DNA from: Bacilli bacterium
Lineage (GTDB): Bacteria; Bacillota_I; Bacilli_A; JBKEDG01
Reading direction: 5' to 3'
Assembly (NCBI GenBank): GCA_047975285.1
Contig: JBKEDG010000091.1
Span: 18-64,017 of the forward strand
DNA: 64,000 bases
Of this stretch, positions 875 through 44,219 are shown piece after piece. The stretch's first letter is position 1; each line of letters begins with the position of its first letter. Under the pieces are notes generated by a model. It saw only the letters and a list, made by a program, of their open reading frames with translations, did no database searches and was not told the DNA's origin. Made by a program: the position numbers and the translations under genes.

Positions 875-902
875 AAAAAAGCCATAGTTTATACTATGAC
901 TT
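875..902 (-). terminator. Intrinsic terminator after cstA and the small UGA-containing gene
   Basis: Minus strand reads AGTCATAGT-ATAA-ACTATGGCT then TTTTT, starting at the TAA at 901-903. Confidence 0.8.
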
Positions 903-1194
903 AATACATATTTACACCTTTAACATCCAAACTTTTAAAGAATAAAAACTCACTTAAATCTACGGTTACTACACCATCTTTTGTATCTAAATGTTTATAG
1001 TAGTATATATCAATATCAGACAAACAAACAAATCCGTAAAGAGATTCATTTCCCTTATCTAACTGTTTTCCCAAATAAACTTCTGGGGTCCCTGCACCAA
1101 GTCAACACCCCGTATCTTTAATATCAATTGTTATTATATCAAATCTTTTCTTTTCAATATACTCTTTTGCTTTAGGTGTTAATACAATCTCCAT
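901..1194 (-). CDS. 97-aa candidate selenoprotein with a G-C-U motif (in-frame TGA at 1102-1104); resembles HesB-like CC/Se-motif proteins
   Basis: ATG lies 2 nt after the cstA stop. Translation: MEIVLTPKAKEYIEKKRFDIITIDIKDTGC-[TGA]-LGAGTPEVYLGK...FKSLDVKGVNMY-TAA. 66 sense codons follow the TGA and end at the terminator. Confidence 0.75.
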
Positions 1195-1196
1195 AT

Positions 1197-2816
1197 TTAT
1201 GCCTTTTTAGAATTAAATAGTGCACCATATGCATACTTTATAAATATTAATGCAAGAATGAATAATCCAGTACTTAGTACAACTAAAATCATTCCTCCAC
1301 TTTCAATTCCATTGCTCATCATGGTAATAAGATTAGATTTTACTAAAAGCACAAGTGCAAACATTGTAACTAATACCATAAATACCATTGGAATAATAAT
1401 CATCTTATTATCTCTACCTGTTTGTTTTAACCATACAGCAAGAACAAGTAAAGCAAGTGCAGCTAATAATTGATTTGCAGACCCAAATATTGGCCAAACT
1501 TTTTGCCAACCAGCAACACATAGCAATCCTCCTGCTAATACTGTAATTGTAGTTGCAACATATTTATTAGATAACATTGAATCTTTATTATCAGCACCTT
1601 TTTTATTTTCAAAAAACTCTTGGAATATAAATCTTCCTAAACGTGTTGCAGTATCTAATGACGTAAGAGCAAATGCTGAAACAGAAAGTGAAATAAATGT
1701 TACACCAAATTCTTTTGGAATTCCAATTTTAGTCATAAATTCACCAACACCATCAGCAAAAATTACAGTTGGAGCAGTCCCAGTTGCAAAAGTTCCCTTA
1801 GCAACATATGAAACAGTAATCAAAGCAATAACAGCAAGTACACCCTCAATTAACATAGCACCGTATCCTACTAATTTTGCATCCTTTTCACTATTTAATT
1901 GTTTTGCAGTTGTTCCTGAACCTACTAGTGAATGGAATCCACTAATTGCCCCACATGCAACTGTTACAAATAGAATAGGGAATAAATAATTTCCATTAAT
2001 ATTAAATCCAGTATATGCTGGCAATTCAATGTCAGGTCTATAGAAAAGTAGTCCTATAATTGCTCCTGCTAACATTGCATATAATAAAAATGAATTTAAA
2101 TAATCTCTTGGTTGTAATAAAATCCAAACAGGAGTTACAGAAGCTATAAAAATATACGCTAATATAATAATTGTCCAAGTTGTTGTAGATAAATTAATAC
2201 CAAAACGTGTACCAATATAAATACTTGCAGCAACCCCAACTAAACCAATAATTGTTGCTATTAAAGAATTTACATTCAATCTATTAGTTAAATAACCAAA
2301 GATAACTGCAACAATAATAAATAGCATTGAAGTAGTAGCAACTGCTGGAATATCAATAAAAGTTCCAACAACTATAGAAATAAATGCAGCTTCAACTAAT
2401 AGAAGTGTTAACCAAGCAAAAATTGAAAATAATCTTTTCCCAGATTCACCCATTGTTGTTGAAATAATTTGTCCTATTGATTTACCATCATGTCTAAGTG
2501 AAGCAAATAACGAACCAAAATCGTGTACACCACCAAAAAAGATACTACCTACAATTATCCATAAATAAACTGGTAACCATCCAAACATCGCAGCGATAAT
2601 TGGACCAGTAATTGGACCAGCACCAGCAATTGATGCGAAGTGATGCCCTAAAACAACTCCAGCAGATGCTGGCACATAATCCACACCATCACTCTTATAA
2701 TGAGCAGGAGTTTCTCTACTTGGATCTACTCCCCACTTCTTACAAAGCCACGCTCCGTAGCTAACATATGCAACAACAAATGCTACAATTGAACCTAAAA
2801 CTAAAACTAATGACAT
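1197..2816 (-). CDS. cstA: Carbon starvation protein A (CstA family peptide/pyruvate transporter)
   Basis: Motifs TPAH..DGVDYVP, GHHFASIAGAGPITGP, LLQPRDY and ACGAISGFHSL; polytopic membrane protein; AGGAGG SD. Confidence 0.95.
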   Translation of the reverse strand: MSLVLVLGSIVAFVVAYVSYGAWLCKKWGVDPSRETPAHYKSDGVDYVPASAGVVLGHHFASIAGAGPITGPIIAAMFGWLPVYLWIIVGSIFFGGVHDFGSLFASLRHDGKSIGQIISTTMGESGKRLFSIFAWLTLLLVEAAFISIVVGTFIDIPAVATTSMLFIIVAVIFGYLTNRLNVNSLIATIIGLVGVAASIYIGTRFGINLSTTTWTIIILAYIFIASVTPVWILLQPRDYLNSFLLYAMLAGAIIGLLFYRPDIELPAYTGFNINGNYLFPILFVTVACGAISGFHSLVGSGTTAKQLNSEKDAKLVGYGAMLIEGVLAVIALITVSYVAKGTFATGTAPTVIFADGVGEFMTKIGIPKEFGVTFISLSVSAFALTSLDTATRLGRFIFQEFFENKKGADNKDSMLSNKYVATTITVLAGGLLCVAGWQKVWPIFGSANQLLAALALLVLAVWLKQTGRDNKMIIIPMVFMVLVTMFALVLLVKSNLITMMSNGIESGGMILVVLSTGLFILALIFIKYAYGALFNSKKA

Positions 2817-2840
2817 ATTATTTTCCTCCTAAATACTTTA

Positions 2841-3332
2841 CTACGACTTAAAAGCCTTTGCAATCCTTTTTGCATCCTTATTATTAATAACAGTATTATT
2901 ATTTAATGAAATCAAAATAATACCTATTGAACTCCAACCATTTAATCCAAAACTATACGATTTTTGCTTACGATACTTTTTTACAAACTTAATCGTTTCA
3001 TTATCAATTGTTGTATCACTTACAAAAACAAATGTATAATGAGTGGACATATGATTATCATCATCTCGACTTTGATTTAATAAAATCTCAACGTTCTTAT
3101 CTAATACTTCAACGATTGAATCTATTGTTATAACTTTCTCTTTTTTTATATAGATGTAACTATTATTGTTGTACGCATATACGACAACTTTTTTAGACCC
3201 CATGTATTTTGAATTTTGAACATTTGAAACAGCATACAAATCAAAAAATGTATTATTAATAATTTGATCAGATTTTATATCATAGTAGAATGACAACCTC
3301 TCTGAAACATCATCAATATAACTCACTTTCAC
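2841..3332 (-). CDS. Hypothetical protein (~163 aa)
   Basis: Long ORF; likely GTG start at 3332, 7 nt after AGGAG. No function recognised. Confidence 0.7.
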   Translation of the reverse strand: MKVSYIDDVSERLSFYYDIKSDQIINNTFFDLYAVSNVQNSKYMGSKKVVVYAYNNNSYIYIKKEKVITIDSIVEVLDKNVEILLNQSRDDDNHMSTHYTFVFVSDTTIDNETIKFVKKYRKQKSYSFGLNGWSSIGIILISLNNNTVINNKDAKRIAKAFKS

Positions 3333-3415
3333 ACACCATCTCCTTTTAATATATAATATTATAACATAAAAAGCACAAAAATGACACAAAAAAAATATTA
3401 AAGTAAAATTTCAGT

Positions 3416-3441
3416 AAAAAAAGTGCTCAATTTGAGCACTT
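3416..3441 (-). terminator. Intrinsic terminator of the dnaK operon
   Basis: AAGTGCTCA-AAT-TGAGCACTT followed by a T run, directly at the dnaJ stop. Confidence 0.85.
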
Positions 3442-4525
3442 AATTAAACATCTCTTTAAATTTTCCGAGTATACCCTGTGATGATAAGTCTGTATCACGC
3501 AATTTTTCAAACAATTTTGTTTGCTCTTTATTTAGTGCAGTTGGAGTAACTACATTAGCAATTATATACATATCTCCATAATGTGAATTATTAACATTTT
3601 TTACACCTTTATTTTTCAATTTAAACTTTGTACCACTTTGAGTTCCTTTAGGAACTTTAAGATCAACTTTACCATTAAGCGTTGGAACTTCCATTACAGT
3701 TCCAAGAGTTGCATCAGCTATATTAATTGGTAACTCCAAAAATATATCATCATTATTTCTATTAAACTTTTTACTAGGTGCAACATTAAACACTAAATAT
3801 AAATCGCCAGATGGTCCATTGTTAATACCTTCTTCACCTTTACCACTCATTCGCATCTGCGTCCCATTATCAACACCTGCTGGAATTGTTACCGTGATAG
3901 TTTTGTTCTTTCTCACTCTACCCTTGCCATGACATTTACTACAACGTTTTTCAAAAGTTTTACCTTTTCCATTACATGCTTTACAAGTTGTCTTTTGAAC
4001 AAAATTACCAAACGGAGTTCTTTGTTCAACCGTAACTTGCCCACTTCCATGACAACTGGTACATCGCTTGGAAGAAAAACCACCCTCACCATGACACTCT
4101 TCACAATTACTTTCTACAGCAATAGTCATATCTTTCTTACAACCAAATACTGCTTCTTCAAAAGTTAAATTGACTCTTTTTTCTAAATCTCTACCTTTTT
4201 GCCTAGCATTTGGGTTATGTCTACCCCCAAATCCTCCACCAAAAATATCTCCAAAAATATCTCCAAAATCAAAGTTTCCAAAATCAAATCCTCCACCTTG
4301 ATTTCCTTCAAATGCGGAATGTCCAAATTGATCATACTGGGATCTTTTTTGCGAGTCACTCAAAACAGAGTAAGCTTCTTGAGCTTCTTTAAACTTTTCT
4401 TCGGCATTATCTTCTTTGCTTACATCTGGATGATATTTTTTTGCTAACTTTCTAAAAGCACTTTTTATTTCTTTTTCATCACTAGATTTGGATACACCTA
4501 AGACTTCATAGTAATCTTTTTTCAT
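3440..4525 (-). CDS. dnaJ: Chaperone DnaJ
   Basis: J-domain with HPD, G/F-rich region and four CxxCxGxG zinc motifs. Confidence 0.98.
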
Positions 4526-4540
4526 TATTGATATACCCTT

Positions 4541-6355
<1,815 letters not shown>

Positions 6356-6367
6356 TTATTTTATAAT

Positions 6368-6889
6368 TTATTCATTCACTTTTACCATTGCTGGTCTCAA
6401 TATTTTATCTTTTATTTTGTAACCCTTTTGAAACTCTTCAATAACCGCTCCAGACTCATAATTATCATCTTTTCCAGTCATTACTGCTTGATGAAAATTA
6501 GGATCAAACTCTTCACCAACTGACGCTACTAATTCAACACCATTTTTTTCTGTAATATCAACAATTTGTTTATAAATTAATTTGAATCCATCCAAGGCAT
6601 TATTATTAATTTCACTATTACAAGATTCAATTGCACGATCAAAATTATCAATAACTGTAATTAAATCAGTCATTATTTCACCTGTAGCGTATCTCATAAA
6701 ATTCTGTTTTTCTTCATTTGTTCTTCGTTTGAAATTCTCAAGTTCTGCTGCATTCCTAAGAACCTTATCTTTTAAAGAATGAACCTCTTTTTTTAAAACT
6801 TCCATGTCATCATTAACATTTTCAGTTTCTTCATGAATTTCTTCCTTTTCAACTTCTTCAGTCATAATTTCTTTTTCACTCATCATCAT
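6368..6889 (-). CDS. grpE: Nucleotide exchange factor GrpE
   Basis: AELENFKRR, FDPNFHQA and LRPAMVKV motifs; lies between hrcA and dnaK. Confidence 0.97.
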   Translation of the reverse strand: MMMSEKEIMTEEVEKEEIHEETENVNDDMEVLKKEVHSLKDKVLRNAAELENFKRRTNEEKQNFMRYATGEIMTDLITVIDNFDRAIESCNSEINNNALDGFKLIYKQIVDITEKNGVELVASVGEEFDPNFHQAVMTGKDDNYESGAVIEEFQKGYKIKDKILRPAMVKVNE

Positions 6890-7883
6890 TCTCCTTATTT
6901 ATTCTGTCTAGGTTGTCTTTAATTTCTTGTAGTAAGTTCACTACTTTATTATAATCCATCCTAGTTGGTCCAATAACTGCAACACTCGCTTCTTCTTTTC
7001 CGGTACGATATTTTGTTGTAATAACACTTAAGTCGTTAGAAATAACATTATCTTCTCCAATTCTAACATCAATATCATCTGAGTAATTTAATAACGATAA
7101 AATTGTCTCATCACTGATTTCTTTAATAAACTTTCTAATCATACCAATATCATCAAATTCTGGTTGATTAATAAGTTTCTCATAATCTTTAAATTTAATG
7201 TCTTCATTATTATTCTTTGAAATTGCAACAATACTTTCAATAAACATTTCATATAAAGTATTATGCTGATCAATAAATGTCTTAATAACTGGCTTTACTT
7301 CTAATTCAAGTTTATTTACAACTTCATTCATTGGAGTATCAGTAAGTAAATCGCTTATAGTAACGACTGTTTCCCTTAATTCCTCTAAATCAATTTCTTC
7401 ATCAATGCTAACTAATCGATTAAACACTCTTCCTGTATTAGTAACAATTATCGAAACCACACTATGATTATCAACACCAACAATCTTTACTTCTTTTAAT
7501 TTTTCAAACTCTGATAAACTCCCAAGCATAACCACAGAATAATCAGTTAAATCAGAAATTAATTTTATGCTTTCATAGACTGCGTCTTTTAACACAAGAC
7601 TATTGCTAGCAAAAAGATTTCTAACCTTACCACGATCATTATCAGCATCCTCCATTAAATTATTAACATAATATTTGTAACCTAATTCTGTTGGTTTCCT
7701 ACCACTAGCAAAATGAGTTTTAGCAATAAGGCCGTGTTTTTCTAACACCGCCATCTCATTCCTTACTGTTGCACTACTAACATCAAATACCTCACAAACA
7801 TCACTAGAACTAATTGGTTCAACTGTTTTAATATAAAATTCCGTGATAAACTTCAAAATGTTTTTTTGGCGTATACTTAACAC
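6876..7883 (-). CDS. hrcA: Heat-inducible transcription repressor HrcA
   Basis: SSATVRNEM..LE..G and VIGPTRMDY motifs; GTG start after GAGG; CIRCE elements upstream. Confidence 0.96.
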   Translation of the reverse strand: MLSIRQKNILKFITEFYIKTVEPISSSDVCEVFDVSSATVRNEMAVLEKHGLIAKTHFASGRKPTELGYKYYVNNLMEDADNDRGKVRNLFASNSLVLKDAVYESIKLISDLTDYSVVMLGSLSEFEKLKEVKIVGVDNHSVVSIIVTNTGRVFNRLVSIDEEIDLEELRETVVTISDLLTDTPMNEVVNKLELEVKPVIKTFIDQHNTLYEMFIESIVAISKNNNEDIKFKDYEKLINQPEFDDIGMIRKFIKEISDETILSLLNYSDDIDVRIGEDNVISNDLSVITTKYRTGKEEASVAVIGPTRMDYNKVVNLLQEIKDNLDRINKENDDE

Positions 7884-7895
7884 ATTATCACCTCA

Positions 7896-7922
7896 TTAGC
7901 AATCTTATTATCTAATTGCTAA
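7896..7922. promoter_or_regulatory. CIRCE element 1 (HrcA operator, variant)
   Basis: TTAGCAATC-N9-AATTGCTAA versus consensus TTAGCACTC-N9-GAGTGCTAA; lies between the -10 box and the SD. Confidence 0.85.
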
Positions 7923-7926
7923 AATA

Positions 7927-7955
7927 ATTATACACCCTATTTTTAGCAATGTCAA
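7927..7955 (-). promoter_or_regulatory. SigA promoter of the hrcA operon
   Basis: Perfect TTGACA (7950-7955), 17-nt spacer, TATAAT (7927-7932). Confidence 0.9.
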
Positions 7956-7969
7956 CACTTAATTGCTAA
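7943..7969. promoter_or_regulatory. CIRCE element 2 (variant) overlapping the -35 box
   Basis: TTAGCAATG-N9-AATTGCTAA. Confidence 0.8.
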
Positions 7970-8007
7970 AATATAATAAAAGTTCCTTCATTATACTTTA
8001 GCATATC

Positions 8008-8045
8008 AAAACACCCCTTTGTTGATTATCCAACTTTTGGGGTGC
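8008..8045 (-). terminator. Intrinsic terminator of the LRR surface-protein gene
   Basis: GCACCCC...GGGGTG followed by TTTT, with an inner GTTG/CAAC stem. Confidence 0.7.
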
Positions 8046-8074
8046 CTCAAACTTTTATGCGTTTATTTCAATAT

Positions 8075-10798: not shown

Positions 10799-10852
10799 AA
10801 TTCCCTCCATACTTTTATTTTGTAATTTGAAATAATAATTGTACTGCAATTC

Positions 10853-10984
10853 CATTTTAAAACTATTAAGCCATATATTGTACTTACAATTATTTCAACA
10901 TACATTAATATCTTTTTAAAATACTCAAGTTTTTATAATGGTCTATTCACTCATTTTATAAAACACTAAGCCATAAATTGTACT
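10853..10984 (-). repeat. Duplicated motif in the 5' leader of the LRR gene
   Basis: Minus-strand AGTACAAT(T/A)TATGGCTTA at 10967-10984 and 10867-10884, each followed by ..TTTT(AT)AAAATG. A third AGTACAATT core lies near 10837-10845. Confidence 0.8.
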
Positions 10985-10992
10985 CGTTGTTT

Positions 10993-11021
10993 ATTATATG
11001 TTAATTTTGTTAAGATGTCAA
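10993..11021 (-). promoter_or_regulatory. SigA promoter of the LRR gene
   Basis: Perfect TTGACA-17-TATAAT, implying a leader of ~190 nt. Confidence 0.85.
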
Positions 11022-11042
11022 TACAATAGTGTAAATATATAT

Positions 11043-11089
11043 AAAAAAAGTTGCAACTATTAACAAAATTAATAATTACAACTTTTTTT
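11043..11089 (-). terminator. Terminator after gloA
   Basis: Inverted repeat AAAAAAAGTTG...CAACTTTTTTT with an inner ATTAA/TTAAT stem. Confidence 0.65.
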
Positions 11090-11098
11090 ATATATATA

Positions 11099-11479: not shown

Positions 11480-11487
11480 AACTCCTC

Positions 11488-12270: not shown

Positions 12271-12271
12271 A

Positions 12272-14040: not shown

Positions 14041-14073
14041 CATTTCCCTCACTTTTTAATAATATTTATTTAT

Positions 14074-15783: not shown

Positions 15784-15799
15784 TTTACCACCACTCAAT

Positions 15800-16678
15800 C
15801 TAGTCTTTTATTTTAAATTTATCCACATACGGCTCAATGTGAAAATTAAAATGAAAATTATAATTATATTTTTCTTTAACTTTTTTTTCTATATTGTTAC
15901 AAATCTCATGTGCATTATAAACACTCATTTTTGCATCAAACATCAAATGTGCCTCAACATAAACATTAACTTCATTTCCTCTTGTTTTTAAAAAGTGGAC
16001 TTCTTTTACATCATTTATCTTTTCAATAAATTCTTCTAATTCTACCTGATCAATTATTGAAGAATCAATTAAAACACTTACCGATTTGAAAAATATTTCA
16101 AGCCCTGCTTTAATTATGATAACACCTATAAAAATTGAAATGATTAAGTCAATTAGTCCCGGTGCTCCTAATTTTATCATAATCATATTTATTAATACTC
16201 CAAGCGTAATATAAATATCGCTCAAAGTATGTTTTGCATCACTTACTAAAAAACTACTTTTTAATTTTTTCCCTTTCCTTGTTTCATATATTACAACAAT
16301 TATATTAATTATAAGTGTTGATGCAATTATTAAAATCGATCCTAATGATATTGTAACTGTAGAAGTAGAGTTAATGCTTGTAACAAAATTGTAAATTACT
16401 CTACCACCAGTGTACATTAAAACAAACGAGATGATTAAACTAGCAAGGTTTTCAATTTTTTCATGTCCATATAGATGAGTATCATCTGCCGGTTTAAATG
16501 CTAAAAATAATGCAAATATTCCCACAAAATTTGCTAACAAATCACTCAGACTATGAAATGAATCTGCAACAACAGCACTAGAGTTAATATTCAATCCAAC
16601 TAGTAACTTGATTGTAAATGATAATAAATTCAAAATTGAAATTATTATTAAAACTCTAATTACCTTATTATCTTTCAT
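15800..16678 (-). CDS. Cation diffusion facilitator (CDF/FieF-like) transporter
   Basis: ADSFHSLSD, PAD..H.YGH.K.E, SDAKH..SD and C-terminal HIEP. Confidence 0.93.
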   Translation of the reverse strand: MKDNKVIRVLIIISILNLLSFTIKLLVGLNINSSAVVADSFHSLSDLLANFVGIFALFLAFKPADDTHLYGHEKIENLASLIISFVLMYTGGRVIYNFVTSINSTSTVTISLGSILIIASTLIINIIVVIYETRKGKKLKSSFLVSDAKHTLSDIYITLGVLINMIMIKLGAPGLIDLIISIFIGVIIIKAGLEIFFKSVSVLIDSSIIDQVELEEFIEKINDVKEVHFLKTRGNEVNVYVEAHLMFDAKMSVYNAHEICNNIEKKVKEKYNYNFHFNFHIEPYVDKFKIKD

Positions 16679-18030
16679 TACAATTGAATCCTACTTGTTA
16701 TATATTTAACACATTCATCAATTGAAAGTGTAATTTGTTCTGTCGTTTTTAAATCTCTTATTGTTACAGTAGCATCATTTACTGTATTGTCATCAATTGT
16801 TACGCAGAATGGAATCCCAATTGCATCACTTCTTAAATAGCGCTTACCAATTGAACCAGAATCATCATATTCACACATAAAATGTTTACTAAGTTTTTCA
16901 AATACTTCCTCTGCTTTTTCACTGTGATATTTTTTCATTAGTGGTAAAACACTGACCTTTATCGGCGCAAGATAAGGATGAATATCTAAAAACTCTCTTT
17001 CCTCACTTACAGTATAGGCATCAAATAGTATTGCTAAAAATAGTCTATCTACACCTACCGAAGGTTCTATTACAAAAGGTAGGTATTTACTATTATCAAC
17101 TTGATCAAAATATTCAAGATTTTCCTTAGAAACATTCTGATGAGCAGTTAGATCAAAATCTGTTCTAGAAGCAATCCCCCATAGTTCACCCCATCCAAAT
17201 GGAAACTTAAACTCAATATCAGATGTAGCATTAGAATAGTGACTTAACTCTTCGTCATCGTGATCTCTTAACCTTAAATTATTACCATCAATTTTTAAAA
17301 TATTCAAAAAGTTAATACAATACTCTTTCCAATATTTAAACCACTCTAATTCATTACCAGGTTTACAAAAAAACTCTAACTCCATTTGTTCAAACTCCCT
17401 AGTTCTGAAAATAAAATTTCCTGGAGTTATTTCATTTCTAAAACTTTTCCCTATCTGACAAATTCCAAAAGGTATCTTTTTTCTAGTTGTACGAGCAACA
17501 TTCTTAAAGTTAACAAAAATTCCTTGTGCCGTTTCAGGTCTCATATAAATATCATTCCCTTTTCCAGAAACAACACCTTGTTCTGTTTTAAACATCAAAT
17601 TAAACTGCCTAATGTCAGTATAATTATTATTACCACATTCTGGACAATTAATTTCATTATCTACAATATATTTTTTTAATCTTTCTTCATCCCAACCATC
17701 AGCAATACTTCCATCAAAATTTTCTACCAACTTATCAGCCCGAAATCTATTGTTACAACTTTTACAATCAATTAGAGGGTCACTAAAACCACCTACATGT
17801 CCACTTGCAACCCAAACATTTGGGTTCATCAAAATAGCACTATCTAAACCTACATTAAAACGTTGTTGTTTTACAAACTTATCCCACCATGCCTTTTTTA
17901 TATTATTTTTTAATTCAACACCTAGTGGACCATAATCCCAAGTATTTGCAAGACCACCATAAATCTCACTTCCGGAGTACACAAACCCATATTTTTTTGC
18001 GTATTTAACTAAATCATCAAAATTTACCAT
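16678..18030 (-). CDS. glyQS: Glycine--tRNA ligase, single-subunit (alpha2) type
   Basis: SEIYGGL..WDYGPLG, MRPETAQGIF, FRNEITPGNFIFRTREFEQME and VIEPS.G.DR; ATG at 18030 after GGAGG. Confidence 0.96.
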   Translation of the reverse strand: MVNFDDLVKYAKKYGFVYSGSEIYGGLANTWDYGPLGVELKNNIKKAWWDKFVKQQRFNVGLDSAILMNPNVWVASGHVGGFSDPLIDCKSCNNRFRADKLVENFDGSIADGWDEERLKKYIVDNEINCPECGNNNYTDIRQFNLMFKTEQGVVSGKGNDIYMRPETAQGIFVNFKNVARTTRKKIPFGICQIGKSFRNEITPGNFIFRTREFEQMELEFFCKPGNELEWFKYWKEYCINFLNILKIDGNNLRLRDHDDEELSHYSNATSDIEFKFPFGWGELWGIASRTDFDLTAHQNVSKENLEYFDQVDNSKYLPFVIEPSVGVDRLFLAILFDAYTVSEEREFLDIHPYLAPIKVSVLPLMKKYHSEKAEEVFEKLSKHFMCEYDDSGSIGKRYLRSDAIGIPFCVTIDDNTVNDATVTIRDLKTTEQITLSIDECVKYITSRIQL

Positions 18031-18112
18031 TGCATTACCTCCCATATTAATACATATGTATTAATTATAACATTTTTTAGTTATAAATGATATTAATAAG
18101 AGTGTTTTATCC

Positions 18113-19444
18113 TTATATTTTTATTTTTGAATGAAAATGATTTATTGGTGATTTACCGCTTCCTACAACATAATTGTCTACTATACCATCATATATATAT
18201 TTAGTAGCGTTTTTTACAGCAACATTTAAATCCATTCCATTTGCAAGATTAGTCGCAATAGCACTAGATAGACTACATCCTGTACCATGAGTATGAACTG
18301 TGTCAACTCTTTTACTGTAATATTTATAAAATTTACCTTCATAATATAAAACATCAACTAAAACTTCCCCTTTTAAATGCCCGCCTTTTATTAAAACATT
18401 TTTTGCTCCAAGTTGATATAATTCTAAACATGCATCTTCCATTTTCAATTCTGAGTCAACGTCATAATTTAAAATTTGTGACACTTCTTCAATATTAGGT
18501 GTAATAAGATAACAAAGTGGAAACAAAGTATTAACTAACGAATCAATAGAATTTTCACTTAGTAACACACTATTATCTTTGGCCACCATAACTGGATCTA
18601 AAACAATTTTACTTGTCGACTTTAGCGATTTAGCAACCGTTTCAATGATCCTTGCACATGAAAGCATTCCTATTTTTATTGCTTTAACATCTAAGTCATT
18701 CAATACACATTCTATTTGCTTAGAAATAATATCAGAATCTAGTTCCACTACAGCATAAACTCCTGTTGTATTTTGAGCTGTTACTGCGGTTATAACACTA
18801 GCTGCATACCCCCCATTAGCACTAATTGTTTTAATATCTGCACTAATACCTGCACCACCAGAACTATCACTACCTGCAATTGTTAAAACAACATTTTTAC
18901 TATCAGTTGATAGTTGAGAACAAAATAATTTTTCGCAGTCAAATCCTTTTTTAAAAATAAGTGATAATTTAAAAAAATCGTTCGTGAAACCACTAGCATA
19001 TTTTATATACTTATCAACAAACATATCTGAAAAAAAATCTTTTAACTCACCATAATATTCGCCATAATCACTCTCTAAACTTAAGTTTTTTATAAGTTCA
19101 TTTTTACTAATAATGTACGGAACAAACAGCAAAATTATTTCATCGTAATCTAATGTAATCAGCAAATTATCTATCATACAAATATAATCCTTGGTAATAT
19201 GAGTTATATCATCTAAATCTTCATTTAATTTTTTTTTATAATTTATAATGTCTTTAAAAATTATTGTATCTTCATTTTTATATTTCAAAACTATATAATT
19301 ACAAATTTTTTTAAAATGCATCAAACGAATATGCTCTTGTTTAATGTAAGCATTAACTTTATATTCTTCAATGTTTTTATCAAAATTATTTAAACTATTC
19401 TTACAAAGACTGCAAAAGTCATTGATTATATTTTTTTGTGTCAT
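18113..19444 (-). CDS. thiD: Hydroxymethylpyrimidine(-phosphate) kinase ThiD with a degenerate N-terminal TenA-like domain
   Basis: C-terminal LTIAGSDSSGGAG, KIGML, DPVM, ITPN..E and HTHGTGC. The first ~180 aa align by eye with TenA helices. Confidence 0.85.
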   Translation of the reverse strand: MTQKNIINDFCSLCKNSLNNFDKNIEEYKVNAYIKQEHIRLMHFKKICNYIVLKYKNEDTIIFKDIINYKKKLNEDLDDITHITKDYICMIDNLLITLDYDEIILLFVPYIISKNELIKNLSLESDYGEYYGELKDFFSDMFVDKYIKYASGFTNDFFKLSLIFKKGFDCEKLFCSQLSTDSKNVVLTIAGSDSSGGAGISADIKTISANGGYAASVITAVTAQNTTGVYAVVELDSDIISKQIECVLNDLDVKAIKIGMLSCARIIETVAKSLKSTSKIVLDPVMVAKDNSVLLSENSIDSLVNTLFPLCYLITPNIEEVSQILNYDVDSELKMEDACLELYQLGAKNVLIKGGHLKGEVLVDVLYYEGKFYKYYSKRVDTVHTHGTGCSLSSAIATNLANGMDLNVAVKNATKYIYDGIVDNYVVGSGKSPINHFHSKIKI

Positions 19445-19454
19445 TTTCTAACCT

Positions 19455-20771
19455 CTATATTAAATCATCTTCAATCATTTCATCTGCAAGAGTAGCATCA
19501 GGCTTTAAACTTAAGTGTTTATCTGGCAAAACAAGATGTATTCCAATCCCAAAGATTGCTGCTAAACTCATACCCTGAAAAACAAATTGTGTATTGAATA
19601 AATTAAATGCAAAATATCCTCCTCCAAGTCCAACAACTAAAATAACAGCTACTATAATCATATTTCTAGTATGATTAAAATCTATTCTAGCATTCATCAA
19701 AATTCTTACACCATTTTGAGCAATCAAACCAAATAATACTATTGATATTCCACCCATAACTGGTGTTGGAATGGTAGAAATAAAAATTGCGATTGGATTA
19801 ATAAATGCAATCAACATTGCAAAAACACCAGCAAGTTGTATAACTTTTATACTAGCAACTTTTGTTAGAATAATCACTCCTGTATTTTCAGCGTAAGTTG
19901 TATTCACAGGACCACCAATAATTCCTGCACACAATGTTGCAAGTCCATCTCCTAGAATTGTTCTTTTAAGCCCTGGATCTTTTAAAAAATTTCTACCTGT
20001 AATTGCCGAACCTACAGTATGATCACCAATATGTTCTGCAATTGTAACAATAACTAACGGAATAACAGCAAGTAGTATTGATGAGTTAAATTTAAAATTA
20101 CCATCAATTAAAATTATATTGAATTCAGGAACTTTAAAAAATTGAAGATTCTCAAAACTACTTAAATCAACTATACCCAATATAAAAGCAGCAATATATC
20201 CAACAAAAATTCCAATTAAAATTGGAACTGATTTAATAAAACTATTGCCTTTTTCAAGAGCAAACAAAGTTGCAAGCAAGGTTATAAGTGCTACTATTAC
20301 GCTTTTAAAATTAAAATTATCAATACTAAGACCACTATTTGCCATCGCTATTGGTGCAAGCGATAATCCAATAACAATTACAAGTGGCCCCATCACAACA
20401 GCAGGTAATACATAATCAAGCCACTTAACTCCTATCATCATTGTAATAAGGGAAATCAATACATATAAAATTCCTACGCAAATAACTGCAAAAGCAACAC
20501 CAGATCTCCCTTCAGTTTGCATTAGTGCTCCTAAAAGACTAATGTAAGCAAAAGAACTTCCAATAAATACTGGAACTTTTTGTTTTGTAGTGAAACTGTA
20601 AATTAATGTACCCATACCAGCACAAAATATTGCTACACTAACATCAAGACCAATTAAAATTGGAACTAAAATTGTTGAGCCAAACATTGCAAAAACGTGT
20701 TGTACAGAAAGTAATAAATGTTCGCTTTTCTTTTTAGGAACATCTTCAATACCATATTTAAAATTAATCAT
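19455..20771 (-). CDS. uraA: Uracil permease (NCS2 family)
   Basis: QHVFAMFGSTILVP, GSSFAYI, EHIGD, GDGLAT and NTTYAEN; PyrR attenuator upstream; ATG at 20771 after GGAGG. Confidence 0.93.
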   Translation of the reverse strand: MINFKYGIEDVPKKKSEHLLLSVQHVFAMFGSTILVPILIGLDVSVAIFCAGMGTLIYSFTTKQKVPVFIGSSFAYISLLGALMQTEGRSGVAFAVICVGILYVLISLITMMIGVKWLDYVLPAVVMGPLVIVIGLSLAPIAMANSGLSIDNFNFKSVIVALITLLATLFALEKGNSFIKSVPILIGIFVGYIAAFILGIVDLSSFENLQFFKVPEFNIILIDGNFKFNSSILLAVIPLVIVTIAEHIGDHTVGSAITGRNFLKDPGLKRTILGDGLATLCAGIIGGPVNTTYAENTGVIILTKVASIKVIQLAGVFAMLIAFINPIAIFISTIPTPVMGGISIVLFGLIAQNGVRILMNARIDFNHTRNMIIVAVILVVGLGGGYFAFNLFNTQFVFQGMSLAAIFGIGIHLVLPDKHLSLKPDATLADEMIEDDLI

Positions 20772-20789
20772 AAATCCTCCCAATTGCCT

Positions 20790-20815
20790 AAAAAAGTGTA
20801 TGCCGTAGCATACAC
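20790..20815 (-). terminator. Attenuator terminator of the PyrR leader
   Basis: GTGTATGC-TACG-GCATACAC followed by TTTTTT. Confidence 0.9.
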
Positions 20816-20826
20816 AAAAGTAAATA

Positions 20827-20856
20827 CTTTCCCATCTCTCTGGACAAGGTTAAAGG
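20827..20856 (-). promoter_or_regulatory. PyrR-binding RNA stem-loop
   Basis: CCTTTAA-CCTTGTCCAGAGAGATGGGAAAG matches the PyrR consensus (CUUUAA...UCCAGAGAG) and precedes a terminator and uraA. Confidence 0.85.
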
Positions 20857-20928
20857 CACTATAAATATAGTATCATCTAAATATAAATAAATCAAGATAT
20901 TTTAATAGATATTAGTATAGTTTGCACA

Positions 20929-21363
20929 TTATTTAACAAGATTATTAAATTTGATCGGCCTATCTAATCTTTTATTAGCAATATATAATGCAATAAATCC
21001 AAAGATTACTATATTTGAAAGTGAGCAAACTATAAGTTCCTTAGAAAGCATTATTTTTTCACTCCAAACAAAATATAAATCTGTTGTTAAATAATATGTC
21101 GGTACAAGTCTCACAACTTTTCCTAAGTGTGTAGAACTTTCTGCTATATCTCTAAAAGTACCCGATAAAAACATTATAACAAACATTGCTATAAGAGAAA
21201 TATCTTGTACTCCACTATTATTTTTGAAAATTAGTGCAATTGTTAACCAAATAAATGCCATTGATATAAACACTAATATATACTGTAGTATTATTGCTTT
21301 ATAATATTGTATTGAAGGTACTTTTAAATTACATACAATATATGCTATCCCTGTAACTATCAA
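20929..21363 (-). pseudogene. C-terminal fragment of an ABC-2 type permease
   Basis: Hydrophobic ORF with MFLSG.F and P.YY motifs; no SD/ATG and the N-terminal part is missing; abuts an ATPase remnant. Confidence 0.6.
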
Positions 21364-21368
21364 TATTA

Positions 21369-21625
21369 AATTACACTATTTTTTGCGTTAAAATTTGGGA
21401 AAACTTTCTAATGTTAAAAATAAGAAGTATTACTTCTTTTACTTTTTGCAAATTACTAATTATTTCTCCTCCGTAACTCACACGATTTAAAATTATTTTA
21501 ATGAAAGTTATCTTACCTTAGCCATTTTCTCCTATTATTCCAATAATTTTGCCTTTAGGTAAATTCAAATCATCTACACTCAAACAAAAGTTTTTGTACT
21601 TTACTATTAAATTTCTTATTTCCAT
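21369..21625 (-). pseudogene. N-terminal remnant of an ABC transporter ATPase
   Basis: MEIRNL...LPKGKIIGIIGENG-[TAA 21518-21520]-GKITFIK: a nonsense codon inside Walker A, with the rest of the domain absent. Confidence 0.75.
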
Positions 21626-21811
21626 TTATATATTATGTGATTTATGTGATTTTAAATACCATTTTTCATCACACTTCTCCCTTTTCATTAAATTAACTCA
21701 ATAATTAAAAGTAATTGTTGTTACGTAAAATTAAATACACATTTATAATCAAAACTGCTTTCTAACATTTTTTACTGAACTTTCAGCCGGTTATTAGAAT
21801 TAAACGAACAT

Positions 21812-23932
21812 TTATTTTTTTATTAATGATTTAAACTGAAAATTAATCTTTTTTATCCCATGCGGAATGGCAAAAGCAACAGTAATTATGTCTCCATCAA
21901 TCTCAACTACCATTCCATCTCCATACATTTTATGGTTAACCTTATCACTAACTTTTAATGTGCCCTCTTGAATTCTATCTGCATCAAACTCTAGATTATA
22001 TTCCTTTTTGTCAAACCCAACTTTTTTAATTAAAACCTCACCATTTTTCTCTATCAGGTCATTACCAATTTCATCTATAAATCTACTTGCAGATGTAAAA
22101 GTTACTGACCCATATACAGCCCTTCTTTTAGCTCTGGATAAATATAACTTTTTTTTAGTTCTAGTGATTCCAACATAACACAGTCTTCTTTCTTCTTCTA
22201 GTTCATCAAATTTATCAATACTATTTCTGTGTGGGAACAACTCTTCTTCCATCCCAACCATAAACACATAATCATATTCTAATCCTTTGGCAGAATGCAA
22301 TGTCATTAAAGTAAGTTTATTTTCAACATCATCATATTGCTTTATATCTGCAACTAAACTTATTTGGTCTAAAAACTCTTCTAATGTTAAAGTATCATTT
22401 TCACTCTCAAAACTGATTGCAATGTTTAAAAATTCATCTATGTATTCTAGTTTGGTTTGACTTTCAATTGATAAATCATTATATTGTTCTTTATATTTTG
22501 TATCTAATAAAACTTTTTTAATTGTGTCGCTGACAAGATTGTTCTTAGAGTATTTTACAAGATTTCTAATAATTTGATTAAAGTCAAAGAGTTTTTCATT
22601 CATTTTATCGCTAAGACTGTCTAATTTTATTGTTTCCATTAGGCTAAGACTATTTTTATTTGCAACCAACCCAAGTTTTTCTATTGTCATATATCCTATT
22701 CCTCTCTTAGGAGAATTTACAACTCTTCTAAAACTTATATCATCATCAAGATTAGTTATTAACTTTAAATATGCAATCAAGTCTTTTATTTCTTTTCTAG
22801 CATAGAAATAGTAACTACCTACAATGTTATAAGCAATATTTTCTTGTAATAAAACTTCTTCAAATATTCTTGATTGAGCATTAGTACGATATAAAATAGC
22901 GATATCATTTAACAAAACTTTATTACTACAAAGTTTAATAATATTCCCTACAACTTCATTTGCTTCATCTATATCACTTTCATATTCACTATATTCTAAT
23001 AAATCTCCTTTCTCATTATTAGTATATAGGTTTTTATGCTTTCGATTAGTATTATACTTTATCACTTCATTAGCAGCTGCAATAATGCTCTTACTGCTTC
23101 GATAATTTTGTTCAAGTAGAATTACATTGGCATTTGGATAATCTTTTTCAAAATTTAATATATTGCTCATATCAGCTCCACGCCACGAATAAATCGATTG
23201 GTCTCCATCACCTACAACAAATATATTTTTATATTTATCTCCTAGTAACTTTACTAATTTATACTGAACTTGATTAGTATCTTGATATTCATCAACTAGA
23301 ATATATCTATATATATTCTGATATCTATCTAATACTTCCCTAAAATTTTCAAAAAGTTTTAACGGCAAGACTAATAAATCATCAAAGTCTACACAGTTAT
23401 TTATATATAAAGTATCACAATATTGTTTACAAACACTAATAATATTATTGTCATATAAATTTTCTTTTTTTAATTTTTCTATACTCAATTGCTCGTTTTT
23501 CATCTTGGAAACTATGGATAAAATATTTCTACAATTATACTTCTTTGAATCTAAATTCATTTCTTTAATAATTCTCTTTACTATAATAACTTGATCATTA
23601 CTATCTAATATTGTAAAACCATTTTTATACCCTAGCTTAGTGATTTCTCTTCTTAAAATTCTTAATCCAAAACTATGAAATGTAGATATTGTTGCCTCTT
23701 GTGAATTTTCATTTAACATCTCAAAAATCCTAGTTTTCATTTCATTTGCTGCTTTATTTGTAAAAGTTATCGCTAAAATATTGTATGGTCTTACTCCACT
23801 ATTTATTAGATACGCAATTTTATGTGTAAGTACCCTCGTTTTTCCACTACCAGCTCCTGCAACAACTAGTGTAGGCCCATCGCTTTCTAAAATAGCCTCT
23901 TTTTGTTGATCGTTTAACTCATTTATTTTCAT
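21812..23932 (-). CDS. pcrA: ATP-dependent DNA helicase PcrA/UvrD
   Basis: AGAGSGKT, TFTNKAA, VDEYQD, QNYRS, HSAKGLE and EERRLCYV. Confidence 0.96.
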   Translation of the reverse strand: MKINELNDQQKEAILESDGPTLVVAGAGSGKTRVLTHKIAYLINSGVRPYNILAITFTNKAANEMKTRIFEMLNENSQEATISTFHSFGLRILRREITKLGYKNGFTILDSNDQVIIVKRIIKEMNLDSKKYNCRNILSIVSKMKNEQLSIEKLKKENLYDNNIISVCKQYCDTLYINNCVDFDDLLVLPLKLFENFREVLDRYQNIYRYILVDEYQDTNQVQYKLVKLLGDKYKNIFVVGDGDQSIYSWRGADMSNILNFEKDYPNANVILLEQNYRSSKSIIAAANEVIKYNTNRKHKNLYTNNEKGDLLEYSEYESDIDEANEVVGNIIKLCSNKVLLNDIAILYRTNAQSRIFEEVLLQENIAYNIVGSYYFYARKEIKDLIAYLKLITNLDDDISFRRVVNSPKRGIGYMTIEKLGLVANKNSLSLMETIKLDSLSDKMNEKLFDFNQIIRNLVKYSKNNLVSDTIKKVLLDTKYKEQYNDLSIESQTKLEYIDEFLNIAISFESENDTLTLEEFLDQISLVADIKQYDDVENKLTLMTLHSAKGLEYDYVFMVGMEEELFPHRNSIDKFDELEEERRLCYVGITRTKKKLYLSRAKRRAVYGSVTFTSASRFIDEIGNDLIEKNGEVLIKKVGFDKKEYNLEFDADRIQEGTLKVSDKVNHKMYGDGMVVEIDGDIITVAFAIPHGIKKINFQFKSLIKK

Positions 23933-23975
23933 ACCTAAACCTCTTATCTATCATATCGTAAAAATAAGAATGAAA

Positions 23976-24482
23976 TTATTTATCATTCTTACTAAATAAC
24001 TGATTAAATACATCAGTAAAATATTCCTCATTACTATTGCTGTCTTTGCTATCATAAAGTTGTGATGAGTCGTTAAACTCTCCACTCTTTAATGAAATTA
24101 TTGCTGGTACACCTTTAATATCATATTTTTCAAAGTAATGCTCAAATTCATCACTTGTAGTATTAGCATAATATATAATCTTAACTCCGTATTCTTTTGC
24201 AACTGAATCTAATATAGGCGCCGCCTCTATACAATACGGTCAAGTACTTCTTCCAAAAAATATGTATGCATCTTCCTTATTATTAATAACTTCTTCTAAT
24301 TTAATAGCATCTACTTTTACAAAAACATGGTCACTTTTAAGTTTATATCCTTCAAAGTTTATATCCTCTATTTCCTTAGAAGTTTCTTGCGGTTTTTCTT
24401 CCGACTTATCTTCACCTTTAGAACAACCTACTAATGTAAATGTTAATAACACCGCGCTCATTGCTATAATGATTTTTTTCAT
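23976..24482 (-). CDS. 168-aa thioredoxin-fold lipoprotein with a UxxC motif (in-frame TGA at 24240-24242); candidate selenoprotein
   Basis: Lipobox LVG-C20. Sequence IFFGRST-[TGA]-PYCIEAAPIL. 87 sense codons follow the TGA, including the cis-Pro motif GVPAII, to TAA at 23976. ATG is coupled to the buk stop (TAAGATG). Confidence 0.82.
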
Positions 24483-44205: not shown

Positions 44206-44219
44206 GTAAATTTAAATAT

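What the first reader, a model, noticed from the sequence alone, without database searches (positions are those of the whole stretch)
901..24482. Two unlinked genes share an in-frame UGA at a redox-cysteine position: hidden UGA recoding in a standard-code genome
Seen: two genes 23 kb apart (901-1194 and 23976-24482) each contain one TGA in an otherwise intact frame, both at Cys-type motif positions (G-C-U and U-P-Y-C). Both are followed by C and by a hairpin whose loop starts 17-20 nt downstream. TGA is a true stop elsewhere (hrcA, leuS, purF, purC, cinA) and Trp is TGG, so code 4 does not explain it. Known: bacterial Sec insertion needs SelA, SelB, SelD, tRNA-Sec and a SECIS just 3' of the UGA; rare Cys-inserting UCA-anticodon tRNAs also exist. 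Inference: this organism recodes UGA, which I would not expect in this Mollicutes/Erysipelotrichia-like lineage. If sel genes are absent genome-wide, an unconventional readthrough mechanism is implied. No sel gene is in this window.
Basis: partly seen in the sequence, partly recalled or inferred. Interest (0 to 1): 0.9.

Follow-up and report, generated by a model that had tools for sequence, protein, structure and literature searches.

The report
Two ordinary selenocysteine UGA codons
Both in-frame TGA codons are normal bacterial selenocysteine codons, served by a complete selenocysteine machinery encoded elsewhere in the same genome, so no hidden or unconventional recoding is needed.

Summary
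Two minus-strand genes, 901-1194 and 23976-24482, each carry one in-frame TGA followed by C. One sits in a C-U motif, the other in a U-P-Y-C motif. Each is followed by a small hairpin whose loop starts 20 or 17 nt after the codon.

The same genome has a selD-selA-selB-yedF cluster, a tRNA-Sec with anticodon UCA, and RF2. TGA ends about a fifth of the window's genes.

Gene 1 belongs, marginally by score, to the catalogued CC/Se motif selenoprotein family. It has a predicted IscA/SufA-like fold. Fourteen of 17 full-length relatives have Cys at the TGA column.

Gene 2 is a thioredoxin-fold protein, probably a lipoprotein. Its TGA, downstream sequence and hairpin are conserved in the only two other species of its order, which also have selA and tRNA-Sec.

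At least six more selenoprotein genes occur in the genome. This is canonical selenocysteine decoding in a lineage where the trait is uncommon (selA in 16 of 399 sampled class genomes).

A more interesting side lead: two TGA=Trp, RF2-less genomes of the same class have a tRNA-Sec with anticodon CCG, and CGG at the Sec positions of PrdB and PrdC.

The parts
901..1194 (-). Gene 1: a 97-residue CC/Se motif family selenoprotein with a predicted IscA/SufA-like fold. It starts 2 nt after the stop of a CstA-family gene (1197-2816).
   Evidence: Translation. NCBIfam NF041239 scores 42.1 bits against a cut-off of 40 with C at the TGA, and 36.3 bits with the stop read through. AF2 model pLDDT 91.1. Foldseek top hits are IscA and SufA, TM 0.58-0.65. 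CstA neighbour.
1102..1104 (-). UGA codon 31 of gene 1, read as selenocysteine (C-U motif), followed by C.
   Evidence: At this alignment column, 14 of 17 full-length relatives have Cys, 2 have Gly and 1 has Trp.
1070..1087 (-). SECIS-like hairpin of gene 1: 6 bp, loop AGUUUA, 20 nt after the UGA.
   Evidence: -5.5 kcal/mol; 2.4% of 3000 control TGAs reach -5.
23976..24482 (-). Gene 2: a 168-residue thioredoxin-fold protein with an N-terminal signal-peptide-like stretch ending LVGCS (probable lipoprotein) and a U-P-Y-C redox motif. It starts 1 nt after the stop of an acetokinase-family gene (24484-25551).
   Evidence: Translation. Pfam PF00085 scores 28.8 bits against a cut-off of 23.5. Homologues with the same TGA occur in G002 (42% identity) and G001 (30%). 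Neighbour.
24240..24242 (-). UGA codon 81 of gene 2, read as selenocysteine (UxxC motif), followed by C.
   Evidence: TGA stands at the aligned position in all 3 genomes of the order.
24212..24230 (-). SECIS-like hairpin of gene 2: 7 bp with one mismatch, loop GGC, 17 nt after the UGA.
   Evidence: -3.4 kcal/mol. Across the three species the helix has 8 pairs, 91.7% of 24 cells paired, and 3 pairs changed on both sides. Fifteen of 500 shuffles reach this, and slid controls give 25-58% paired.

Best explanation
Both TGAs are canonical bacterial selenocysteine codons.

The inferred pathway, from the established bacterial mechanism, is as follows. SelD makes selenophosphate; SelD is itself a selenoprotein in this genome. 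SelA converts Ser-tRNA-Sec(UCA) to Sec-tRNA-Sec. SelB binds that tRNA together with the small hairpin 17-20 nt downstream of the UGA. It delivers the tRNA to the ribosome in competition with RF2.

Gene 1 then yields a 97-residue protein with an IscA/SufA-like fold and a Cys-Sec pair in the loop after its second strand. Its likely role is thiol/selenol-based binding or transfer of a metal, sulfur or selenium species, possibly linked to the upstream CstA transporter. That role is inferred only.

Gene 2 yields a membrane-anchored extracytoplasmic thioredoxin-like oxidoreductase, in which Sec replaces the attacking Cys of the CxxC motif.

What is shown: the codons, the hairpins, the machinery genes, the family membership and the conservation. 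What is inferred: actual Sec insertion and the biochemical roles.
For: 1. Machinery in the same genome:
- selD, 322.5 bits (cut-off 125), with one in-frame TGA.
- selA, 549.7 bits (cut-off 267.9).
- selB, 344.8 bits (cut-off 242.25).
- These three are adjacent on C8 and are followed by yedF (TIGR03527, 152.8 bits against 110).
- tRNA-Sec with anticodon UCA, found by ARAGORN and by Rfam RF01852 (69.4 bits against 47).
- RF2 is present, split over two contig ends.

2. Both TGAs sit at Cys positions of known selenoprotein families. Gene 1 matches NF041239, 'CC/Se motif family (seleno)protein', and 14 of 17 full-length relatives have Cys at that column. Gene 2 is Pfam Thioredoxin with UxxC.

3. 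Gene 2's TGA is kept in G002 and G001. The protein is conserved after it, with invariant P82, Y83, C84, A87, P89, Y104, Y105, V125, P126 and G134. The hairpin is kept through compensatory changes. Both genomes have selA and tRNA-Sec.

4. The hairpins fit the published bSECIS model better than most random TGAs. The same scan gives -5.5, -6.1, -6.3, -2.9 and -3.7 kcal/mol for the SelD, GrdB, Grx-like, ArsC-like and Ogt Sec sites. Six TGAs at non-Cys positions give 0 to -3.7.

5. Two database relatives of gene 1 are fragments that start just after the TGA (P0003, which is the window's own, and P0007). The closest full-length relative (61% identity) shows W there, as a code-4 gene call of a TGA would (the last point is inference).
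Against: - There is no biochemical or read-level evidence of Sec insertion.
- Whole-region folds are not better than shuffles. Gene 2's hairpin energy is reached by about 7% of random TGAs.
- Gene 1 has no counterpart in G001 or G002, nor in any of the 399 other scored class genomes. Its TGA therefore has no comparative DNA support.
- Gene 1's family score is marginal: 42.1 bits against 40, and 36.3 with the stop unread.
- The draft assembly contains in-frame stops in conserved genes at non-Cys positions. Examples are TGA in tyrS and galE, and TAA or TAG in lepA-like and ABC-ATPase-like genes. A lone TGA in this assembly is thus not automatically meaningful.
- Only 34 tRNAs were found in the 103-contig draft, so a missed tRNA cannot be excluded.
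Confidence: 0.93

Rival explanations
1. One of the TGAs, realistically only gene 1's, is a nonsense mutation or an assembly error. In that case gene 1 is a pseudogene or really carries TGT/TGC.
For: The same draft genome has in-frame stops in otherwise intact conserved genes:
- TGA in tyrS, aligned to Phe of 2ts1.
- TGA in galE, aligned to Leu of 2c20.
- TGA in citE-like, amidohydrolase, Na:Ala symporter and HD-domain genes.
- TAA or TAG in lepA-like, hydrolase-like and ABC-ATPase-like genes.
Gene 1 was not found in the sister genomes.
Against: - The TGA falls exactly on the second Cys of the family's CC motif (14 of 17 relatives).
- It is followed by a model-conforming hairpin that only 2.4% of control TGAs match.
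- It lies in a genome with complete Sec machinery.
- The family is curated as a (seleno)protein family (review table).
- For gene 2 this rival is excluded, because the TGA is conserved in three species.
Confidence: 0.04
2. The UGAs are read through without selenocysteine. A near-cognate tRNA-Trp, or a UCA-anticodon tRNA charged with Cys, would give a Trp or Cys protein.
For: UGA followed by C is recalled to be a leaky termination context (not tested here).
Against: - The only UCA-anticodon tRNA found is a 97-nt tRNA-Sec scoring 69.4 bits on RF01852.
- selA, selB and selD are intact and clustered.
- RF2 is present.
- TGA ends 10 of 48 window ORFs.
- The SECIS-like hairpins have no role in this model, yet they are conserved.
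Confidence: 0.02

Closest known systems
Canonical bacterial selenocysteine insertion (SelA, SelB, SelC, SelD plus an in-frame SECIS, as in E. coli fdhF)
   Same: All four machinery genes are present. The UGA is in frame. A hairpin with G in the first two loop bases lies 17-20 nt downstream, inside the coding region.
   Different: Nothing mechanistic differs. The hairpins are short (6-7 bp), as in many non-E. coli SECIS elements. The host belongs to a small-genome, low-GC class in which only 16 of 399 sampled genomes have selA.
CC/Se motif family (seleno)protein, NCBIfam NF041239. [quoted passage not shown]
   Same: Same length class (91-position model). The full-length match is just over the cut-off. 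The CC/CU dipeptide stands at the same column.
   Different: The score is marginal. Gene 1 is the only match among 400 scored class genomes. Here it sits directly downstream of a cstA gene. Its fold is predicted to be IscA/SufA-like, which I did not see stated for the family.
Thioredoxin and thiol:disulfide-interchange selenoproteins with a UxxC motif (Pfam PF00085 and PF13098 rows of the review table)
   Same: Thioredoxin fold by HMM, and Sec at the N-terminal position of the CxxC motif.
   Different: Gene 2 has a lipoprotein-type N-terminus. Close relatives were found only in the two sister genomes, and word-index searches of 5.8 billion proteins found nothing. No curated equivalog matches above its cut-off.
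HesB-like selenoprotein (TIGR01911, UxGP motif) and IscA/SufA A-type carriers
   Same: Gene 1's predicted fold matches IscA and SufA structures (TM 0.58-0.65). The Cys-Sec pair lies in the loop between strands 2 and 3, where I recall the first cluster-ligand Cys of IscA to be.
   Different: No TIGR01911 or Pfam Fe-S biosynthesis hit at E <= 0.01. The motif is C-U-L-G rather than UxGP. There is no C-terminal Cys pair.
Natural selenocysteine recoding at codons other than UGA (Mukai et al. 2016, known to me only through review PMC10778597). This is relevant to the side lead only.
   Same: In G184 and G282 the tRNA-Sec homologue has a changed anticodon, and the selenoprotein genes carry the matching codon at the Sec site.
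   Different: The hosts read TGA as sense and lack RF2. The codon is CGG. I could not see whether this case is among the ten sense codons of that paper, because the paper is not held.

Membership tests
Bacterial Sec-decoding trait | selA (selenocysteine synthase) present | tested here: met
   TIGR00474 scores 549.7 bits against a cut-off of 267.9, at C8:11381-12721.
Bacterial Sec-decoding trait | selB (Sec-specific elongation factor) present | tested here: met
   TIGR00475 scores 344.8 bits against 242.25, at C8:12732-14570.
Bacterial Sec-decoding trait | selD (selenophosphate synthetase) present | tested here: met
   TIGR00476 scores 322.5 bits against 125, and 328.7 bits with U read as C. 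It has its own in-frame TGA in the motif GG-U-QAK.
Bacterial Sec-decoding trait | tRNA-Sec with anticodon UCA | tested here: met
   ARAGORN finds tRNA-SeC(tca) at C55 c[1478,1574]. Rfam RF01852 scores 69.4 bits against 47.
Bacterial Sec-decoding trait | SECIS hairpin just 3' of the UGA (loop 3-9 nt, stem of at least 4 bp, G in the first two loop bases, spacing 16-37 nt) | tested here: met
   Gene 1: spacing 20, -5.5 kcal/mol. Gene 2: spacing 17, -3.4 kcal/mol. Controls reach -5 in 2.4% and -3 in 7.2% of cases. Covariation for gene 2. Whole-region folds are not significant.
Bacterial Sec-decoding trait | Selenium actually incorporated at the UGA | not testable with these tools
   This needs 75Se labelling or mass spectrometry.
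CC/Se motif family (NF041239) | Full-length HMM match over the curated cut-off | tested here: inconclusive
   42.1 bits against 40 with C at the TGA. 36.3 bits, below the cut-off, when the stop is only read through.
CC/Se motif family (NF041239) | CC or CU dipeptide at the conserved column | tested here: met
   At the first column, 11 of 17 full-length relatives have Cys. At the U column, 14 of 17 have Cys.
Thioredoxin-fold UxxC selenoprotein | Thioredoxin domain and Sec at the first position of CxxC | tested here: met
   PF00085 scores 28.8 bits against 23.5. The U-P-Y-C motif is invariant in three species.
Bacterial lipoprotein | Signal peptide with a lipobox Cys | not tested
   The sequence shows MKKIIIAMSAVLLTFTLVGCS, and relatives show ITGCS and LTSCN. 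The lipobox pattern is recalled. No predictor was run.
HesB-like selenoprotein (TIGR01911) | HMM match and UxGP motif | tested here: not met
   No such hit at E <= 0.01. The motif is CULG. Only the fold resembles it.
Genetic code 4 (TGA = Trp) | No RF2, TGA inside conserved genes at Trp positions, and tRNA-Trp(UCA) | tested here: not met
   RF2 is present. TGA ends 10 of 48 window ORFs. The only tRNA-Trp has anticodon CCA. By contrast, G184 and G282 have 18-20 TGAs inside leuS.

The most novel reading that the evidence does not exclude
The novel element lies in the window's class relatives, not in the window.

The window's order (G000, G001, G002) uses UGA for Sec and has RF2. Two complete genomes of another family of the same class, G184 and G282, differ in four ways:
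- They read TGA as sense (18 and 20 TGAs inside leuS).
- They lack RF2.
- They keep selA, selB and selD next to a 97-nt tRNA-Sec homologue whose anticodon is CCG.
- They carry CGG exactly where G002 has TGA in PrdB (..LTAG-x-GTCHR..) and PrdC (..TCE[DS]-x-[ST]NTV..).
CGG is otherwise almost unused in the sampled loci.

My reading is that these TGA=Trp bacteria kept selenoproteins by moving Sec from UGA to the near-vacant codon CGG. I found no report of this in four paper searches. The key paper on natural Sec recoding (Mukai 2016) could not be read, so priority is uncertain.
Probability: 0.65. Interest if true: 0.75.

Novelty: new member of a known kind. Interest (0 to 1): 0.2.

Why it matters
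For the finding itself, the main consequence is annotation. Gene callers cut both genes at the TGA; the protein database holds only the 57-residue tail of gene 1. The genome's selenoproteome of at least nine genes would therefore be missed.

The result also documents the Sec trait in a small, little-known order of a class where it is uncommon. Surveys from 2006 and 2016 reported no SelD in Mollicutes (passages).

The side lead matters more. If CGG encodes Sec in TGA=Trp genomes, it shows how a lineage can lose UGA as a stop without giving up selenoproteins. It would also be a natural example of a sense codon captured for Sec.

Tried and rejected
**Code 4 or general TGA readthrough.** Rejected. 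RF2 is present, TGA is used as a stop, and there is no tRNA-Trp(UCA).

**TGA = Gly (a code 25-like reading).** I considered this because several non-Cys TGAs seemed to fall on Gly positions (recalled). I rejected it for three reasons:
- The aligned residues differ: Phe in TyrS and Leu in GalE.
- TAA and TAG also interrupt conserved genes.
- No other UCA-anticodon tRNA exists.
These cases look like pseudogenes or draft-assembly errors.

**Word-index homologue searches.** Almost nothing came back. P0001 returned only its own fragment, and P0002 returned none.

**The search for related loci in genome contigs.** It gave one weak Eubacteriaceae MAG match (27% identity) and one spurious signal-peptide match. 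Neither was used further.

**A3 profile against PDB sequences.** No credible hit.

**GrdA (PF04723).** Not found in G000. The control rang in no genome, so this says little. A recalled GrdA motif also found nothing credible.

**Sequencing runs.** None was listed for window:1-10000, and no RNA holder was listed.

**dN/dS.** Not computed. At 42% and 30% protein identity, synonymous sites are saturated. I used protein conservation after the TGA instead.

**Supplements.** They are closed. The supplementary tables of PMC5029168 and PMC13462651 may list which genomes carry Sec genes.
Full report
**Observation**

Both genes are on the minus strand. Window 901-1194 translates, with TGA read through, to a 97-residue protein with a single TGA at codon 31 (1104..1102) in the motif DTG-C-U-LGAG. 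Window 23976-24482 gives a 168-residue protein with a single TGA at codon 81 (24242..24240) in the motif RST-U-P-Y-C.

Under table 11, each gene is split into two short ORFs. Both TGAs are followed by C.

TGA is otherwise a normal stop:
- Ten of the window's 48 ORFs of at least 150 aa end in TGA. These include the leuS-like ORF and four pur-cluster ORFs.
- Genome-wide, 56 of 563 long ORFs end in TGA.
- The one tRNA-Trp found has anticodon CCA.

**Machinery**

The whole genome is held as G000: 1.53 Mb, 103 contigs, 28.6% GC, with the window at C75:18-64017. It contains the following:
- selD, 322.5 bits, at C8:10375-11274.
- selA, 549.7 bits, at C8:11381-12721.
- selB, 344.8 bits, at C8:12732-14570.
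- All three are over their curated cut-offs.
- They are directly followed by a YedF-type selenium metabolism gene (152.8 bits against 110).
- selD has an in-frame TGA of its own, in the motif GG-U-QAK.
- A 97-nt tRNA-Sec with anticodon UCA lies on C55 (ARAGORN; Rfam RF01852, 69.4 bits against 47).
- RF2 is present, cut by a contig break.

**SECIS**

A recent review gives the bacterial SECIS model (PMC13188914; I read passages of section 5). The loop has 3-9 nt and the stem 4-16 bp. [quoted passage not shown] The loop lies 16-37 nt from the UGA.

I scripted exactly these constraints.
- Gene 1: a 6-bp stem, loop AGUUUA, spacing 20, -5.5 kcal/mol.
- Gene 2: a 7-bp stem, loop GGC, spacing 17, -3.4 kcal/mol.
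- Of 3000 random TGAs from the genome, 7.2% reach -3 and 2.4% reach -5.

The other Cys-position TGAs found in the genome give:
- -5.5 (SelD)
- -6.1 (GrdB)
- -6.3 (Grx-like)
- -2.9 (ArsC-like)
- -3.7 (Ogt)
- -0.8 (AhpD-like)

Six TGAs at non-Cys positions give -2.5, -0.9, 0, 0, -3.7 and -0.4. Against this, minimum-free-energy folds of the full 65 nt after each UGA are not better than shuffles.

**Gene 2 in relatives**

The GTDB family and order of G000 hold only three genomes. All three have selA over the cut-off and tRNA-Sec (67.6-71.5 bits).

The gene 2 homologues of G002 (42% identity) and G001 (30%) each contain one TGA at the same U-P-Y-C position. The alignment stays conserved after it. 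Invariant residues there include P82, Y83, C84, A87, P89, Y104, Y105, V125, P126 and G134.

The hairpin is kept:
- It has 8 pairs, with 91.7% of 24 cells paired.
- Three pairs changed on both sides.
- Fifteen of 500 shuffles reach this, and slid registers give 25-58% paired.
- Three sequences and a coding region make this supportive, not decisive.

All three proteins begin with a hydrophobic stretch ending in a Cys: LVGCS, ITGCS and LTSCN. I read this as a lipoprotein signal. That pattern is recalled, and no predictor was run.

Pfam Thioredoxin scores 28.8 bits against 23.5. No NCBIfam equivalog passes its cut-off.

The gene starts 1 nt after an acetokinase-family gene and lies upstream of a UvrD-family helicase gene.

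**Gene 1**

- NCBIfam NF041239, 'CC/Se motif family (seleno)protein', matches end to end. The score is 42.1 bits against a cut-off of 40 with C at the TGA, and 36.3 bits when the stop is only read through.
- There is no Pfam hit.
- An exhaustive phmmer search of 1.84 billion representatives found 20 proteins at E <= 0.001.
- I aligned 18 of those 20 with the query. I left out P0012, a 1181-residue protein that matches only 31 residues. P0003, the window's own tail, was also left out.
- At the TGA column, the 17 full-length relatives have Cys 14 times, Gly twice and Trp once.
- The Trp is in the closest relative (61% identity). It is what a code-4 gene call would print for a TGA; this is my inference.
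- P0003 and P0007 start just after the TGA column, as truncated Sec forms would.
- With this alignment, AlphaFold2 gives pLDDT 91.1 and pTM 0.81.
- Foldseek against the PDB returns IscA, SufA or 'Fe-S biosynthesis protein' entries as 7 of the top 10, with TM 0.42-0.65. I recall two more of the ten, 2apn and 1nwb, as HesB-like.
- The C-U pair lies between strands 2 and 3.
- The family is listed as a predicted selenoprotein family in the review's table.
- A preprint by Haft and Gwadz (passages) calls the CU motif relatively rare and links CC/CU motifs to metal binding.
- Gene 1 starts 2 nt after a CstA-family transporter gene (556 bits).
- It was not found in G001 or G002. Nor was it found in any of the 399 other scored class genomes at E <= 1e-5.

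**Other selenoprotein genes of the genome**

A script listed all in-frame TGAs flanked by open frame that are not covered by longer ORFs. HMM scans then supported these:
- GrdB (TIGR01917, 710.7 bits against 602.2), motif ST-U-GTCTRC.
- A glutaredoxin-like protein, motif F-U-GGC.
- An ArsC/Spx-related protein, motif R-U-STC (75.5 bits against 75.05).
- An AhpD/peroxidase-related protein, motif C-DY-U (62 bits, below the cut-off of 81.8).
- An Ogt/MGMT protein, with U in the P-U-H motif (TIGR00589, 82.9 bits against 46.4).

All these families appear in the review's table. With SelD and the two genes of the finding, that makes at least eight; a ninth candidate, radical-SAM-like, is unclear.

**Distribution**

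In a sample of the GTDB class, 401 genomes were drawn and 399 scored. selA passes its cut-off in 16:
- 3 of 3 in the window's family.
- 4 in family f3.
- 6 in f5.
- 1 in f14.
- 2 in f12.

One more genome, G389, has selA in two pieces. Surveys from 2006 and 2016 reported no SelD in Mollicutes (passages). I have no names for these genomes.

**Interrupted genes**

The same scan found TGA inside otherwise intact genes:
- tyrS, aligned to Phe of 2ts1 with conservation continuing after it.
- galE, aligned to Leu of 2c20.
- citE-like, amidohydrolase, Na:Ala symporter and HD-domain genes.

A control with all three stop codons found TAA or TAG inside lepA-like, hydrolase-like and ABC-ATPase-like genes (these three names come from my reading of the printed context). 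So the draft contains pseudogenes or base errors. This is the main reason I keep a 4% rival for gene 1.

**Side lead**

G184 and G282 are complete 1.3-1.4 Mb genomes of family f12.
- Their leuS contains 18 and 20 in-frame TGAs.
- They have no RF2 at E <= 1e-90.
- selA, selB and selD are over their cut-offs and lie clustered.
- Next to these genes is an RF01852 match of 51.9 bits in G184 and 54.6 bits in G282.
- ARAGORN calls that gene tRNA-Arg(CCG).
- It is 97 nt long and aligns end to end with the tRNA-Sec genes of G000, G001 and G002. The anticodon loop reads CU-CCG-AA instead of CU-UCA-AA.

In both genomes CGG occupies the Sec positions:
- PrdB (TIGR04483, 393-395 bits by genome search, 406 bits with CGG read as U) has CGG where G002's PrdB has TGA. 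The motif is LTAG-x-GTCHRTAVIVQRAIE.
- The TGAs in those PrdB genes sit where G002 has Trp.
- PrdC (TIGR04481, 508 bits in G184) has CGG where G002's PrdC has TGA.

CGG is otherwise scarce in the sampled loci:
- None in 5337 codons of long ORFs in one 17-kb G282 locus.
- One in L036, at the PrdB site.
- Five in 7084 codons in the G184 locus. These include PrdB, PrdC, selA codon 51 and antisense ORFs.

Against this reading, my strict SECIS scan finds little after these CGGs (-0.4, none and none, against -2.9 for G002 PrdB).

What the literature shows:
- Review PMC10778597 (passages) says that natural tRNA-Sec variants read UAG, UAA and ten sense codons, citing Mukai 2016. I could not read that paper.
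- Parks et al. 2026 (Table 2 passage) list Mycoplasmatales as 'tRNA-SeC No; selB 2 of 220'.
- A 2015 Spiroplasma genome paper mentions selA as a horizontally acquired gene and never mentions CGG.
- Paper searches turned up no report of Sec at CGG in Mollicutes.

**Verdict**

The finding is real and correctly described. Its explanation is the textbook one. Interest is low for the window itself. The CGG lead in class relatives deserves its own follow-up.

Noticed in passing
L035 (G184:C1:222001-241000); L034, L036 and L039 (G282:C1:206001-241000); L038 and L040 (G002:C7): Two TGA=Trp, RF2-less genomes of the same class carry selA, selB and selD plus a tRNA-Sec homologue with anticodon CCG. They have CGG at the Sec positions of PrdB and PrdC, where G002 has TGA. 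This looks like selenocysteine moved from UGA to CGG.
   Followed up: partly
G000 contigs: C103:30672-31955(+), C88:25229-25501(+), C8:29278-29637(-), C93:40521-41057(+), C12:60134-60583(-), C8:10375-11274(+): Further selenoprotein genes of the window's genome: GrdB, a glutaredoxin-like protein (UGGC), an ArsC/Spx-related protein (UxxC), an AhpD/peroxidase-related protein (CxxU), an Ogt/MGMT with TGA at the P-C-H active-site position, and SelD itself.
   Followed up: partly
G000 contigs: C4:46649-47884(-), C69:1-974(-), C63:4837-5655(+), C81:8595-9254(-), C14:2-568(+), C43:82278-83489(-); also C93 near 38232, C43 near 663, C4 near 476: In-frame stops at non-Cys positions inside otherwise intact conserved genes. 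TGA interrupts tyrS, galE, citE-like, amidohydrolase, Na:Ala symporter and HD-domain genes. TAA or TAG interrupts lepA-like, ABC-ATPase-like and hydrolase-like genes. These are probably pseudogenes or draft-assembly base errors, not recoding.
   Followed up: partly
G000:C103:24000-34301, compared with L040 (G002:C7:8001-24000): G000 has grdB with a GrdE-like gene upstream, but no GrdA was found. PF04723 gave no match, although the control rang nowhere, and no motif was found. G002 has grdA (CFV-U-TAAG), grdB, prdB and prdC. PrdB is absent from G000 and G001 by TIGR04483.
   Followed up: partly
window 1197-2816(-) and 901-1194(-): The CC/Se selenoprotein gene starts 2 nt after a CstA-family transporter gene (PF02554, 556 bits) and is probably co-transcribed with it. 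Whether the family is generally linked to cstA was not examined.
   Followed up: no
G000:C99:9992-10207(-): A short ORF with TGA in the motif CAAMTW-U-KKG gives weak radical-SAM maturase hits (29 bits, far below the cut-offs). No SECIS-like hairpin follows it. It is unclear whether this is a selenoprotein.
   Followed up: partly
window 44037-44213(-), 63558-63659(-), 63873-63981(-), 46797-47155(-): A T-box leader lies upstream of the leuS-like gene. A purine riboswitch lies upstream of the pur cluster. There is a 5S rRNA and a four-tRNA cluster (Ser, Met, Asp, Phe). These are ordinary features.
   Followed up: no
G001:C1:62440-63489(-): The prfB (RF2) match of G001 contains one in-frame TAA. 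No stop is counted in those of G002 and G000. I did not examine whether this reflects the usual programmed frameshift site or something else.
   Followed up: no
class sample, G389 (contigs C7 and C1): selA is present as two halves on two contigs (250 and 236 bits, each below the cut-off). This is probably a seventeenth Sec-trait genome in the sample, split by assembly.
   Followed up: no
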